Made by a program: the position numbers and the translations under genes
The notes under the pieces: model-generated
What the model was told of the DNA's origin: nothing
The model's input: only the letters and a program-made list of their open reading frames with translations
Database searches by the model: none
Origin: an uncultured archaeon
Lineage (GTDB): Archaea > Aenigmatarchaeota > Aenigmatarchaeia > Aenigmatarchaeales > Aenigmatarchaeaceae
Direction of reading: 5' to 3'
DNA length: 64,000 bases
NCBI GenBank assembly: GCA_964608725.1
Contig: CAZSPB010000002.1
Coordinates: 31,234-95,233, forward strand
In this document: in pieces, positions 4,190-60,009 of the stretch
How the letters are laid out: the number at the start of each line of letters is the position of its first letter
Position numbering within the stretch: the first letter of the stretch is position 1

Positions 4190-4276
4190 AGCGGGGGGAG
4201 GGAGTCGAACCCTCCTCTGTCGCTCTGCAGGTTCGGCTTCTTAGAATCGACCGCATAACCGATCTGCCACCCCCGC
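4190..4276 (-). tRNA. tRNA-Cys(GCA) with a 16-nt non-canonical intron at position 30/31 (4232-4247)
   Basis: Acceptor GCGGGGG/CCCCCGC with U73, T arm GAGGG-TTCGACT-CCCTC, loop CTGCAGA. Stem GTCGC/GCGAC forms only after removing ATTCTAAGAAGCCGAA. No encoded CCA. Confidence 0.93.
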
Positions 4277-56982: not shown

Positions 56983-57082
56983 AAAATCACTTTAACTCTA
57001 ATATTAGAGTAAATTTACTATAAAAAGATTATGCTTAGAGAAAAAGAAAACTTTATATGTTATGAAAAATTACTTTTGTGTA

Positions 57083-57180
57083 GCCCAGGTAGCTCAATGG
57101 AAGAGCGGCTGATTAGTGTCGAAGCTGTTAACCATTGAGTAGAAACCAGCAGGTTGCAGGTTCGAATCCTGCCCTGGGCG
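57083..57180 (+). tRNA. tRNA-Asn(GTT) with two introns: 30/31 (57112-57123) and 37/38 (57131-57144)
   Basis: Acceptor GCCCAGG/CCTGGGC with G73; D arm GCTC/GAGC; T arm GCAGG-TTCGAAT-CCTGC. Removing both inserts gives GCTGG-CTGTTAA-CCAGC. Confidence 0.9.
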
Positions 57181-58362
57181 CTATTCTGCAATAGTATGTT
57201 GATAACTTAACAATTCTGGAGGTAATTCCATTCCTCTTTCTGTTAACCTTTCACAAATAGAAGCAGCTATAGGGCTTTGAGCAAAGGCCGAATAAACATA
57301 AAACCATCTAGGTGTTCCATCTCTCTTTTTCTCTTTGAAAAGAATAGAATAATCAGATGCTCTTTCTAGGGGTGAATTTTCAGTTCCAATCATAGAATAA
57401 ACTCTCACACCAAGATTCCTATAATCTTCTGCCCATTTAACTATTGAAGATCTTTCTTCTTTTGTCTCTCCAGGATATACTATTTTTCCTCCTGAAAATG
57501 AAGTGAATATTGCAACATCTTTTGCCCTTGGCCTTGGTGTGTTTGCTCCTCCTATCATATACACTTCATCACCAAGGAAATGCTTGATATGAGCTAACCT
57601 TATAGCAAGCATTTTAGAAACTTCACCTGCTACTATTCTTCCTGCACAAAATACATCAGCCCTACTTTCTATATCATTTATTAATGAAGAATACATATCT
57701 GAAGTAACAAATTCATCAACTACACTTCCTATTTTTGGAAGTTCTTCCTCCATTATATCAAAAAATCTTTGAGGTTCTGAATTTTCACAGAGCATTTGAC
57801 TAATACCTTGTAAGGTAACAAGACTTCCAAGCTCATAAATATCTTGCATTATTCCAACATCCCTATATTTTTCTAACTTTTCATTTTCACCTCTTCCCTT
57901 TAACTCAAGAACAACCCCATGTCTTTTTCCAATTTTTCCAATAGGAGAATCAGGCTTAGATGTTATAACATCTATAGTAAACTTATCTGTTTTTCTTTTC
58001 TCAATATAATTTTCTATTTGCCTAGTTATGCTTTTAGGCCCTTCTGTTTTGCCACTACCACTGTTAACTATCACACTTATTTTCTTATACTTTCTTTCTA
58101 ATTTTGGAGCTGCTTCATAAACAGTAGCACCTGGGAATCCTATATCTTCTTGAGTTATAATAGTCATATCGTTCCTATTCTTTGCAAGTTCACTTAAAGC
58201 TATTTTTAAAGCACATAATGACCTTCCAGCACCAACTGCAACCCAACAATCAGAAGAAGCTACGTCATAATAAAATTCTTCTAATTGTAAAGGATCAATA
58301 TCAAATATGTTATCTTTTATCTTATTAATATAACCTACTTCATTGCTTATTTTTTCTCTCAT
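57181..58362 (-). CDS. Tandem SIS-domain protein, 6-phospho-3-hexuloisomerase (HxlB/PHI)-like
   Basis: Two repeats: AVGAGRS..NSGSGKT..TSKPDSP and CAGR..KMLAIRLAH..VYMIG..TP..TSFSGG..ENSPL. Confidence 0.7.
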   Translation of the reverse strand: MREKISNEVGYINKIKDNIFDIDPLQLEEFYYDVASSDCWVAVGAGRSLCALKIALSELAKNRNDMTIITQEDIGFPGATVYEAAPKLERKYKKISVIVNSGSGKTEGPKSITRQIENYIEKRKTDKFTIDVITSKPDSPIGKIGKRHGVVLELKGRGENEKLEKYRDVGIMQDIYELGSLVTLQGISQMLCENSEPQRFFDIMEEELPKIGSVVDEFVTSDMYSSLINDIESRADVFCAGRIVAGEVSKMLAIRLAHIKHFLGDEVYMIGGANTPRPRAKDVAIFTSFSGGKIVYPGETKEERSSIVKWAEDYRNLGVRVYSMIGTENSPLERASDYSILFKEKKRDGTPRWFYVYSAFAQSPIAASICERLTERGMELPPELLSYQHTIAE

Positions 58363-58600: not shown

Positions 58601-59905
58601 ATGAAAAAGAAAAATAAGGATAGTGGTTTTATGGATTTTTTACATGTTAAAGATGTGCTTTCAAAAGAAAAAGAAGGAAAAGAAGTTAAGTTAAGAGGGT
58701 GGGTTTACAGGAAAAGAGAACAGAAAGATATAGTGTTTATAATTTTAAGAGATTCTACAGGGATAATTCAATTAACATGCAAAGATGAAGTGTTTAAGAT
58801 AGCTCAAAAAGCTACTATAGAATCTTCTATTCAAGTAAAAGGAATAGTTAAAGAAGATAAGAGAGCTCCAGGAGGTTTTGAAGTAGAAGTAAAAGAGCTT
58901 GAAATAGTTGGGTTAGCTGAAAGATTTCCAATAACTAGAGACAAAAGCGAAGAGTTTTTAAGAGATGTCAGGCACTTATGGATAAGATCTCAAAAAATGA
59001 CAAAAATTTTTAAGATAAGAAGCGAAGTTTTTTATGCTATTCATGAATTCTTTAGAAAAAGAGGATTCATAGAAGTTCAATCACCAAGTATAATAACAGC
59101 TGCTTGTGAAGGAGGAGCAACTTTATTCGAGATAAAATATTTTGATAAGAAAGCTTATTTAACACAAAGTTGGCAATTGTATGCTGAAGCTATGATTTAC
59201 TCTTTAGAAAAGATTTATACTATAGCTCCAAGTTTTAGGGCAGAAAAAAGTAAAACTTTTAGACATTTGGCCGAATACTGGCATGCTGAAGCAGAAGCAG
59301 CTTGGATGGATATGAAAAGTTGTATGAAACTTGCTGAAGATTTAGTATGTTTCATATGTGAAAAAATAGTTGAAAAGTGTAAAGAAGAATTGGAATTTTT
59401 TGGAAGAAAACCAAAAGATTTGTTAATAAAGCCTCCTTTTGAGAGAAAAAGCTATAGTGAAGCTATAGATATCCTGAAGAAAAAAGGTTTTAAAATAAAG
59501 TGGGGAGAAGACCTTGGAGCTGATGAAGAAAAAGCTTTAACTAAAGGTTATAAAAAACCTTTTTTTATTTACGGCTACCCTGTTAAATGTAAAGCTTTTT
59601 ATCATATGCCAGACCCAAAAGATCCAAAAATTACAAAATCTTTTGACTTACTAGCTCCAAGAGTTGGGGAAATAATAGGTGGTGGACAAAGAATTCATGA
59701 TAAAGCTCAATTAATCAAAAAAATAAAAGATTTTGGTTTAGATCCTAAAGATTATGAATGGTATATTGATTTAAGAAAGTATGGTAGTGTTCCTCATTCT
59801 GGGTTTGGTTTGGGTATAGAAAGACTAATAATGTGGATTATTGGCCTTCAGCATATAATGGATGCTATACCCTTTCCTAGAACAATAAGAAGGTATTATC
59901 CTTAA
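58601..59905 (+). CDS. asnS: Asparagine--tRNA ligase (probable start ATG 58631)
   Basis: OB fold LRDSTG, LTQSWQLY.E, FRAEKS.T.RHL.EYW, GEIIGGGQR and GSVPHSGFGLGIER motifs. Confidence 0.9.
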   Translation: MKKKNKDSGFMDFLHVKDVLSKEKEGKEVKLRGWVYRKREQKDIVFIILRDSTGIIQLTCKDEVFKIAQKATIESSIQVKGIVKEDKRAPGGFEVEVKELEIVGLAERFPITRDKSEEFLRDVRHLWIRSQKMTKIFKIRSEVFYAIHEFFRKRGFIEVQSPSIITAACEGGATLFEIKYFDKKAYLTQSWQLYAEAMIYSLEKIYTIAPSFRAEKSKTFRHLAEYWHAEAEAAWMDMKSCMKLAEDLVCFICEKIVEKCKEELEFFGRKPKDLLIKPPFERKSYSEAIDILKKKGFKIKWGEDLGADEEKALTKGYKKPFFIYGYPVKCKAFYHMPDPKDPKITKSFDLLAPRVGEIIGGGQRIHDKAQLIKKIKDFGLDPKDYEWYIDLRKYGSVPHSGFGLGIERLIMWIIGLQHIMDAIPFPRTIRRYYP

Positions 59906-59937: not shown

Positions 59938-60009
59938 GGGCCTATAGCTTAATGGATAGAGCGACAGGCTTCGGACCTGTTGGTGAGGGTTCGAATCCCT
60001 CTAGGCCCA
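59938..60009 (+). tRNA. tRNA-Arg(TCG), intronless
   Basis: GGGCCTA/TAGGCCC acceptor, ACAGG-CTTCGGA-CCTGT anticodon arm, GAGGG-TTCGAAT-CCCTC T arm, A20 present. Confidence 0.95.

What the first reader, a model, noticed from the sequence alone, without database searches (positions are those of the whole stretch)
57083..57180. tRNA-Asn with two very short introns that probably must be spliced in order
Intron 1 (12 nt, 30/31, ATTAGTGTCGAA) has central helix CGGC/GTCG. Intron 2 (14 nt, 37/38, ACCATTGAGTAGAA) has central helix CTGT/GTAG. C32-U33 are needed both for the outer helix of motif 1 (pairing with G24-A23) and for the central helix of motif 2, and the anticodon stem that closes motif 2 is broken by intron 1. 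The two motifs are therefore mutually exclusive. A 12-nt intron is near the lower size limit known in archaea.
Basis: partly seen in the sequence, partly recalled or inferred. Interest (0 to 1): 0.65.

Follow-up and report, generated by a model that had tools for sequence, protein, structure and literature searches.

The report
Two-intron asparagine tRNA gene
This is a real asparagine tRNA gene of a tiny vent archaeon, interrupted by two very short introns whose cutting signals overlap, so they are probably removed one after the other; this layout is already known from other archaea, so the finding is sound but ordinary.

Summary
Window 57083-57180 (+) is a tRNA gene (Rfam 56.5 bits). Removing 57112-57123 (12 nt, position 30/31) and 57131-57144 (14 nt, position 37/38) gives a canonical tRNA-Asn(GUU) with G73.

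- **Uniqueness:** of 80 formally possible two-intron readings, only this one has a full 4-bp central helix at both introns.
- **Organism:** an Aenigmatarchaeota-like (DPANN) MAG from a hydrothermal vent.
- **Relatives:** one close relative keeps both introns (13 + 14 nt). Two distant relatives have the same 30/31 + 37/38 layout with longer 30/31 introns. Many syntenic relatives are intron-less.
- **Motifs:** both are relaxed bulge-helix-bulge motifs (hBH type). As idealised, they share C32-U33, and intron 1 interrupts the stem that closes motif 2.
- **Energetics:** folding favours intron 1 first (motif 2 is +5.2 kcal/mol with intron 1 present, -3.2 after its removal).
- **Limits on "must":** a tRNA-Cys in the same window has a 30/31 intron with only a 1-bp outer helix. 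In one relative, motif 2 forms with intron 1 still in place.

Order-dependent splicing of closely spaced archaeal tRNA introns is already described. I rate it a new member of a known kind, of modest interest.

The parts
57040..57058 (+). Putative archaeal promoter: purine-rich BRE-like stretch and TATA box TTTATAT (57052-57058), centred about 28 nt upstream of the tRNA 5' end
   Evidence: Read directly. The block AAAGAAAACTTTATATG is identical in relative L001, while nearby intergenic bases differ. Promoter function is inferred, not shown.
57083..57111 (+). Exon 1: tRNA positions 1-30 (acceptor 5' strand, D arm, anticodon-stem 5' strand up to G30)
   Evidence: Rfam alignment, ARAGORN on the spliced sequence, alignment with intron-less relatives.
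57112..57123 (+). Intron 1, 12 nt (AUUAGUGUCGAA), position 30/31. It forms a relaxed hBH motif. GUCG (57118-57121) pairs with C25-C28 (57106-57109). The 3' bulge is A-A-G31. The 5' cut site lies in an 8-nt loop and there is no inner hairpin.
   Evidence: L001 has the same intron with one extra A in the loop. L037, L006 and the L140 tRNA-Arg have longer versions with an inner hairpin and the same ...G-N-C-G-A-R end.
57124..57130 (+). Exon 2: 7-nt mini-exon G31-A37 (GCUGUUA) that carries the whole anticodon GUU
   Evidence: The loop CUGUUAA is identical in intron-less tRNA-Asn of relatives.
57131..57144 (+). Intron 2, 14 nt (ACCAUUGAGUAGAA), canonical position 37/38. It forms a relaxed hBH motif. 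GUAG (57139-57142) pairs with C32-U35 (57125-57128). The 3' bulge is A-A-A38. It is closed by the anticodon stem only once intron 1 is gone.
   Evidence: Across relatives the tetranucleotide at intron -6..-3 pairs with CUGU (GUAG, GCAG, ACAG, GCGG, ACGG), except L037's GCUG, which leaves one U.U mismatch.
57145..57180 (+). Exon 3: tRNA positions 38-73 (anticodon-stem 3' strand, variable loop, T arm, acceptor 3' strand, discriminator G73)
57092..57100 (+). D-arm 5' half GCUCAAUGG, complementary over 9 bp to intron 2 nt 2-10 (57132-57140). This pairing dominates the predicted folds of every form that still holds intron 2.
   Evidence: Duplex -14.0 kcal/mol, reached by 9 of 3000 shuffles and 51 of 3000 random AT-rich 8-mers. 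Identical in L001, not conserved in L006. Its role is unproven.
58601..59905 (+). Asparagine--tRNA ligase gene (the cognate synthetase), 1.4 kb downstream
   Evidence: NCBIfam NF003037, 518 bits against a cut-off of 414. Pfam tRNA-synt_2 plus anticodon-binding OB fold.

Best explanation
The element is a functional tRNA-Asn(GUU) gene of an Aenigmatarchaeota-like DPANN archaeon, probably transcribed from a BRE/TATA promoter about 28 nt upstream.

The primary transcript carries two protein-spliced introns, 12 nt at 30/31 and 14 nt at 37/38. They flank a 7-nt mini-exon that holds the anticodon. Each intron presents a relaxed bulge-helix-bulge motif (hBH): an outer helix, a 3-nt bulge with the 3' cut site, a 4-bp exon-intron helix, and the 5' cut site in a hairpin loop. 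The archaeal splicing endonuclease (EndA) would cut these motifs and RtcB-type ligase would join the exons (inferred from established knowledge of the pathway).

The two motifs compete for C32-U33, and intron 1 interrupts the stem that closes motif 2. So the two introns are most likely removed one at a time, with the 30/31 intron first and the canonical 37/38 intron last. Stepwise cutting and ligation also keeps the 7-nt mini-exon attached at one end until the first junction has been ligated.

Shown: gene identity, intron boundaries, the pairings and their conservation.
Inferred: the enzymes, expression and the order.
For: - Rfam tRNA hit; the spliced form is canonical tRNA-Asn(GUU) with G73.
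- The body is about 85% identical to intron-less tRNA-Asn genes near ftsZ in relatives L002, L003, L133, L139 and L140.
- AsnRS lies next door.
- The promoter block is conserved.
- L001 (FtsZ 97%, neighbouring protein 87% identical) has identical exons and both introns. The only change is one A inserted in the loop part of intron 1.
- This is the unique decomposition with 4/4 + 4/4 central-helix pairs.
- Position 27 of helix 1 varies while mostly keeping a pair: G.U (window), U.G (L037), A-U (L140 tRNA-Arg), G-C (tRNA-Cys).
- Helix 2 partners vary as GUAG, GCAG, ACAG, GCGG, ACGG.
- Order: local motif 2 is +5.2 kcal/mol with intron 1 present and -3.2 after its removal, while motif 1 is -1.4 in either case. 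For the whole precursor, the motif-1 fold is -41.9 and cloverleaf plus motif 2 is -24.7; the gap persists from 37 to 80 C. In all five two-intron genes, motif 2 gains 2.5-8.4 kcal/mol when intron 1 is removed.
- Literature: close or nested archaeal introns need sequential removal (PMC8450103, PMC3728597). In C. merolae the 37/38 motif is processed last (PMC3728597). A 13-nt hBH intron is a proven EndA substrate (PMC3239211).
Against: - There is no RNA evidence at all.
- Neither BHB motif appears in the predicted MFE or has appreciable ensemble probability (at most 0.05) in the precursor or either intermediate.
- After intron 1 removal, the predicted fold still prefers the D-arm:intron-2 helix by about 9 kcal/mol over cloverleaf plus motif 2.
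- The outer helix of motif 1 is only 2 bp, and in the tRNA-Cys of the same window it is only 1 bp. C32-U33 may therefore not be needed, which weakens the strict mutual exclusion.
- In L006 the MFE forms motif 2 with intron 1 still present.
- L006 has an A.C mismatch in helix 1 and L037 a U.U mismatch in helix 2.
Confidence: 0.6

Rival explanations
1. The gene and the two introns are the same, but there is no obligatory order. A broad-specificity EndA cuts whichever relaxed motif forms at a given moment. Both single-intron intermediates therefore occur, or intron 2 goes first.
For: - The tRNA-Cys 30/31 intron in the same window has only a 1-bp outer helix, so motif 1 probably does not need C32-U33.
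- The two central helices alone can coexist in one fold (-30.6 kcal/mol).
- The L006 MFE contains motif 2 with intron 1 in place.
- Motif 1 is just as available after intron 2 removal.
- DPANN EndAs with extra loops are reported to accept relaxed motifs (PMC5829648, PMC3239211).
Against: - With intron 1 present, the closing helix of motif 2 is one base pair followed by a 12-nt bulge, giving +5.2 kcal/mol locally.
- The whole-precursor fold with motif 2 is 17 kcal/mol worse than the fold with motif 1.
- Cutting both introns at once would free a 7-nt mini-exon.
- In the one system examined experimentally (C. merolae), the 37/38 motif is processed last (PMC3728597).
Confidence: 0.3
2. The gene is a decaying or non-functional copy (pseudogene). 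The working tRNA-Asn lies elsewhere in the genome, and the BHB-like pairings are remnants.
For: - The genome could not be searched for a second tRNA-Asn.
- Both motifs are thermodynamically weak.
- Close ftsZ-linked relatives have intron-less genes.
Against: - The exons give a perfect cloverleaf with all expected features.
- The exons are identical in L001 despite 79-85% DNA identity in the surrounding region.
- The promoter block is conserved, and the gene sits next to AsnRS.
- The same two-intron layout is kept in distant lineages L006 and L037 and in a tRNA-Arg.
Confidence: 0.04
3. There is a single 26-nt intron, or another register, giving a different tRNA. ARAGORN calls Phe(GAA) without intron mode and Ser(AGA) with it.
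For: ARAGORN outputs.
Against: - The Ser(AGA) reading has an A31/C39 mismatch, A34, and no long variable arm.
- No BHB fits those boundaries.
- Syntenic relatives are tRNA-Asn(GUU) with the same body.
- G73 fits Asn.
Confidence: 0.01

Closest known systems
Multiple-intron tRNA genes of Thermoproteales and other archaea (Sugahara et al. 2007/2008, as cited in PMC8450103 and PMC3728597)
   Same: [quoted passage not shown] Some lie so close that one must be removed before the next BHB can form. Similar introns recur in different tRNAs.
   Different: Here the host is a DPANN (Aenigmatarchaeota-like) archaeon that has FtsZ. Both introns are very short (12 and 14 nt) and lack the inner hairpin. The order dependence is only inferred.
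ARMAN-2 (Ca. Micrarchaeum) pre-tRNA-Cys 13-nt hBH intron, cleaved by the epsilon2 EndA (PMC3239211)
   Same: DPANN host, a very short intron (13 nt), a relaxed hBH motif at a non-canonical position, and experimental cleavage by a broad-specificity EndA.
   Different: That intron is at 59/60 in the T loop and is the only one described for that gene. The EndA type of the present organism is unknown.
Ordered BHB processing in Cyanidioschyzon merolae nuclear tRNAs, including tRNA-Asn(GUU) with an 11-nt hBH intron at 37/38 (PMC3728597)
   Same: Introns are short and of hBH type, some tRNAs have several, and RT-PCR shows an order with the 37/38 motif processed last. The order correlates with BHB free energy.
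   Different: The host is a eukaryote, and its motifs fold independently rather than overlapping. Here the order would follow from shared nucleotides and an interrupted stem.

Membership tests
Archaeal EndA-spliced (bulge-helix-bulge) tRNA introns | Removing the intervening sequences restores a canonical cloverleaf tRNA | tested here: met
   ARAGORN calls the spliced sequence tRNA-Asn(GUU), 72 nt, with all stems perfect. It aligns with intron-less relatives.
Archaeal EndA-spliced (bulge-helix-bulge) tRNA introns | A 4-bp central helix between exon nt -5..-2 and intron nt -6..-3, placing both cuts after the second nucleotide of a 3-nt bulge | tested here: met
   4/4 pairs at both introns in the exact register. 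This is the only one of 80 decompositions to do so. The register is kept in relatives, with pair changes.
Archaeal EndA-spliced (bulge-helix-bulge) tRNA introns | Strict hBHBh' form: an inner helix h' closes the 5' bulge, so both cut sites lie in 3-nt bulges | tested here: not met
   A 12-nt and a 14-nt intron leave 5 and 7 nt for h'. The 5' sites lie in 8- and 10-nt loops. These are therefore relaxed hBH motifs, which need a broad-specificity EndA (PMC3239211, PMC5829648).
Archaeal EndA-spliced (bulge-helix-bulge) tRNA introns | A splicing endonuclease (and RtcB) encoded in the genome, of a type that accepts relaxed motifs | not testable with these tools
Archaeal EndA-spliced (bulge-helix-bulge) tRNA introns | A spliced RNA or excised intron observed | not testable with these tools
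   Only two DNA metagenome runs hold the stretch, and no RNA run does.
Order-dependent (nested or overlapping) multi-intron archaeal tRNAs | One splice motif can form only after another intron has been removed | tested here: inconclusive
   For: the motifs share C32-U33, the stem is interrupted, and motif 2 goes from +5.2 to -3.2 kcal/mol. Against: the tRNA-Cys outer helix is only 1 bp, the L006 MFE shows motif 2 with intron 1 present, and the two central helices alone can coexist.
Intron-encoded box C/D guide RNAs (pre-tRNA-Trp type) | Box C (RUGAUGA) and box D (CUGA) within the intron | tested here: not met
   Neither AUUAGUGUCGAA nor ACCAUUGAGUAGAA contains either box (read directly). The introns are also too short.

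The most novel reading that the evidence does not exclude
Intron 2 may act as a built-in folding guide. Its nt 2-10 pair with the 5' half of the D arm over 9 bp. That would release the D-stem 3' strand to build the central and outer helices of the 30/31 motif and extend that outer helix into a long rod. It would also hold the two RNA halves together for ligation. The result would be an enforced order of intron 1 then intron 2, with the 7-nt anticodon mini-exon protected. A later refolding step into the cloverleaf would then license removal of intron 2.
Probability: 0.12. Interest if true: 0.5.

Novelty: new member of a known kind. Interest (0 to 1): 0.27.

Why it matters
The finding adds a clean, well-bounded example of a multi-intron tRNA in Aenigmatarchaeota. 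tRNA gene finders often miss or mis-call such genes in DPANN lineages; here ARAGORN called Phe or Ser, and missed the gene entirely in the relative L001.

It shows the 30/31 + 37/38 layout with a 7-nt anticodon mini-exon recurring in several lineages and in at least two isoacceptor families (Asn and Arg). It also shows a 30/31 intron that ranges from 27 down to 12 nt, the short forms lacking the inner hairpin.

For annotation, it means this genome does have a tRNA-Asn next to its AsnRS.

It does not change what is known about archaeal tRNA splicing. The one less ordinary point is the strong intron-2/D-arm complementarity, which would be a cheap in vitro test of how splicing order is set.

Tried and rejected
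1. Single-intron readings, Ser(AGA) or Phe(GAA) from ARAGORN. Rejected: stem mismatch, A34, no long arm, no BHB.

2. All 80 two-segment decompositions. Only 30/31 (12 nt) + 37/38 (14 nt) fits. A one-base shift of intron 2 would give Tyr(GUA) but scores only 2/4 in the central helix, and G1-C72/G73 do not fit archaeal tRNA-Tyr, which by my recollection has C1-G72/A73.

3. RNA evidence. No RNA run was found. Laying the two DNA runs only confirmed the assembly.

5. First genome contigs pattern gave 0 hits.

6. Contigs around SIS-protein and FtsZ homologues P0003, P0067, P0069, P0070 and P0072 carried no tRNA-Asn. L138 (P0079) also showed none within the flank fetched, although its contig holds an intron-less copy (L005). 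The P0005 contig (L133) did carry an intron-less one.

7. Claim that the introns are under selection because window and L001 show no substitutions in them. Dropped: the local intergenic identity is 94%, so zero changes in 26 nt has p of about 0.2.

8. Idea that the D-arm:intron-2 helix and central helix 2 could coexist as a pseudoknot. Rejected by inference: the connecting loop would be 0 nt across a 7-bp stem.

9. Growing-transcript MFEs. BHB motif 1 never appears as the MFE at any length; a competing hairpin (raw 22-47, -7.4 kcal/mol) wins.

10. BHB motifs for the extra D-loop inserts of L006 and L037 were not resolved.

Full report
**What is there.** Window 57083-57180 (+) matches the Rfam tRNA model at 56.5 bits, with a 31-nt insertion in the anticodon arm. 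ARAGORN without intron mode calls it Phe(GAA). In single-intron mode it calls Ser(AGA), with an A31/C39 mismatch and no long variable arm. Removing ATTAGTGTCGAA (57112-57123) and ACCATTGAGTAGAA (57131-57144) gives a 72-nt RNA that ARAGORN calls tRNA-Asn(GUU). It has a perfect GCUGG/CCAGC anticodon stem, loop CUGUUAA and discriminator G73.

I listed every way of removing 26 nt as two segments of at least 8 nt that leaves a 5-bp stem and U33. There are 80.

One detail was missed. Intron 2 is flanked by the direct repeat AACCA (57130-57134 and 57144-57148), so six cut registers give the same mature RNA. Only 37/38 forms a BHB.

**Organism and context.**
- The window has 30% G+C.
- It encodes FtsZ, and an asparagine--tRNA ligase 1.4 kb from the tRNA (NF003037, 518 bits).
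- The only runs that hold the stretch are hydrothermal-vent metagenomes.
- The closest named homologues of the neighbouring proteins are from Candidatus Aenigmatarchaeota.
- A TATA box (TTTATAT, 57052-57058) with a purine-rich upstream block lies about 28 nt before the gene. It is identical in the nearest relative.
- An independent Logan assembly of the source run matches the region without a difference.

**Relatives.**
- L001 (neighbouring SIS protein 87% identical, FtsZ 97%) has identical exons and both introns. Its one difference is an extra A in the loop part of intron 1, making it 13 nt.
- The central-helix and bulge nucleotides are untouched. However, local intergenic identity is 94%, so this conservation is not significant on its own.
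- Intron-less tRNA-Asn(GUU) genes with about 85% identical bodies sit near ftsZ in L002, L003, L133, L139 and L140-142.
- Pattern scans found two more lineages with the same 30/31 + 37/38 layout: L037 (Aenigmatarchaeota, groundwater; 21 + 13 nt) and L006 (27 + 14 nt). Both also carry an extra D-loop insert.
- Three DPANN or unclassified archaeal tRNA-Asn genes have only a 37/38 intron: L061, L067 and L102.
- A tRNA-Arg(UCG) in L140 has the same two-intron layout (19 + 20 nt). Its 30/31 intron also ends in GUCGAA.
- The window's own tRNA-Cys (4190-4276, minus strand) has a 16-nt 30/31 intron ending in GCCGAA.
- In these related genes the 30/31 intron ranges from 27 down to 12 nt, and the 12- and 13-nt forms lack the inner hairpin.

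**Pairings.**
- Helix 1 (positions 25-28 against intron -3..-6) reads:
  - window: C-G, G-C, G.U, C-G
  - L037: C-G, G-C, U.G, C-G
  - L140 tRNA-Arg: C-G, G-C, A-U, C-G
  - tRNA-Cys: C-G, G-C, G-C, U.G
  - L006: C-G, G-C, A/C (a mismatch), C-G
- Helix 2 (C32-U35) is matched by GUAG, GCAG, ACAG, GCGG and ACGG. In L037 it is matched by GCUG, with one U.U mismatch.
- These changes support both helices.
- Both window introns lack an inner helix. The 5' cut sites therefore lie in 8- and 10-nt loops, which makes these relaxed hBH motifs rather than strict hBHBh'.

**Order of splicing.** C32-U33 are needed both for the outer helix of motif 1 (with G24 and A23) and for the central helix of motif 2. 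Intron 1 also splits the stem that closes motif 2.

Energies at 37 C point the same way:
- Local motif 1 is -1.4 kcal/mol.
- Local motif 2 is +5.2 with intron 1 present and -3.2 after its removal.
- The best whole-precursor fold with motif 1 is -41.9, against -24.7 for cloverleaf plus motif 2. The gap persists up to 80 C.
- In all five two-intron genes, motif 2 gains 2.5-8.4 kcal/mol when intron 1 is removed.
- Stepwise cut-and-join would also keep the 7-nt anticodon mini-exon attached at one end until the first junction has been ligated (inference).

Several results argue against a strict 'must':
- The tRNA-Cys in this window has only one outer-helix pair.
- The two central helices alone can coexist (-30.6).
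- The L006 MFE shows motif 2 with intron 1 still in place.
- Neither motif appears in the MFE, or reaches more than 0.05 ensemble probability, in the window precursor or its intermediates.

**An unexplained feature.** Intron 2 nt 2-10 (CCAUUGAGU) are complementary over 9 bp to the 5' half of the D arm (GCUCAAUGG).
- The duplex is -14.0 kcal/mol. It is matched by 9 of 3000 shuffles and 51 of 3000 random 8-mers.
- It dominates every predicted fold that still holds intron 2. The precursor MFE is a rod at -46.8 (z = -6.6).
- It is compatible with motif 1 and extends its outer helix. It is incompatible with motif 2. After intron 1 removal the rod is still about 9 kcal/mol better than cloverleaf plus motif 2.
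- It is identical in L001 and absent in L006. L037 has a weak 7-bp analogue.
- It may be chance, or a folding guide that sets the order. I rate the second reading at about 12%.

**Known biology.**
- The tRNAscan-SE 2.0 paper states that some archaeal tRNA genes have introns so close that one must be removed before the next BHB can form (PMC8450103).
- Soma et al. state that in some archaea the last intron forms its BHB only after the others are processed. They show by RT-PCR that C. merolae removes the 37/38 motif last. Their shortest introns are 11 bp, including one in tRNA-Asn(GUU), whose single intron is an hBH intron at 37/38 (PMC3728597).
- A 13-nt hBH intron of ARMAN-2 tRNA-Cys is cut in vitro by its epsilon2 EndA (PMC3239211).
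- DPANN EndAs with extra loops are linked to disrupted tRNA genes (PMC5829648).
- Other notes from this scan describe the same overlapping 30/31 + 37/38 logic in other genomes. Those are leads only, not evidence.
- The finding is therefore a new member of a known kind.

**Limits.** I could not list the genome's full tRNA set, confirm that this is the only tRNA-Asn gene, or type its EndA. No RNA run holds the stretch. Expression, exact junctions and order are therefore all inferred.

**Verdict.** A two-intron tRNA-Asn is very likely (about 0.93). A preferred order of intron 1 then intron 2 is plausible (about 0.55-0.6) but not shown to be obligatory. Interest is modest.

Noticed in passing
window 4190-4276 (-): tRNA-Cys(GCA) with a 16-nt intron at 30/31 (AUUCUAAGAAGCCGAA). 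ARAGORN reports it as 'tRNA-???', and Rfam misses it even at E<=1. The spliced form is a canonical tRNA-Cys with U73. The outer helix of its BHB is only 1 bp.
   Followed up: partly
window 57092-57100 with 57132-57140: There is 9-bp complementarity between the D-arm 5' half and intron 2. It dominates the predicted precursor folds (rod-like MFE, -46.8 kcal/mol) and is reached by only 9 of 3000 shuffles. It is identical in L001 and not conserved in L006.
   Followed up: partly
window 57130-57134 and 57144-57148: The 5-nt direct repeat AACCA flanks intron 2. The intron position is therefore ambiguous from the sequence alone (36/37 to 41/42) and is fixed only by the BHB register.
   Followed up: yes
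L140:224-338 (-): tRNA-Arg(UCG) of an Aenigmatarchaeota relative has the same 30/31 (19 nt, ending GUCGAA) + 37/38 (20 nt) two-intron layout. The window's own tRNA-Arg(UCG) at 59938-60009 is intron-less.
   Followed up: partly
L006:5040-5195 (-) and L037:7440-7610 (-): The tRNA-Asn genes of these relatives carry a third insert in the D loop (about 44 and 32 nt). I could not resolve its splice motif.
   Followed up: no
L136:5793-5919 (+); L037:6918-7044 (-): These are 127-nt tRNA hits with large inserts, probably further multi-intron tRNA genes in Aenigmatarchaeota contigs.
   Followed up: no
window 57083-57180 compared with L002, L003, L133, L139, L140: All intron-bearing tRNA-Asn genes have G31:C39 (CUGG/CCAG). 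All intron-less syntenic ones have C31:G39 (CUGC/GCAG). The FtsZ relatives at 85-88% identity whose contigs were fetched are intron-less, so the intron-bearing allele is patchily distributed.
   Followed up: partly
window 57181-58362 (-): This 393-aa protein has a weak 6-phospho-3-hexuloisomerase (SIS) match in its C-terminal half only. Its stop codon abuts the tRNA's 3' end on the opposite strand, so the two convergent transcripts probably overlap.
   Followed up: partly
window 58601-59905 (+); L136 and L139: AsnRS lies 1.4 kb from tRNA-Asn and is followed directly by tRNA-Arg. Related contigs carry GatCAB (L139) or GatA/GatB (L136) near ftsZ, so the routes to Asn-tRNA may differ among relatives.
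   Followed up: no
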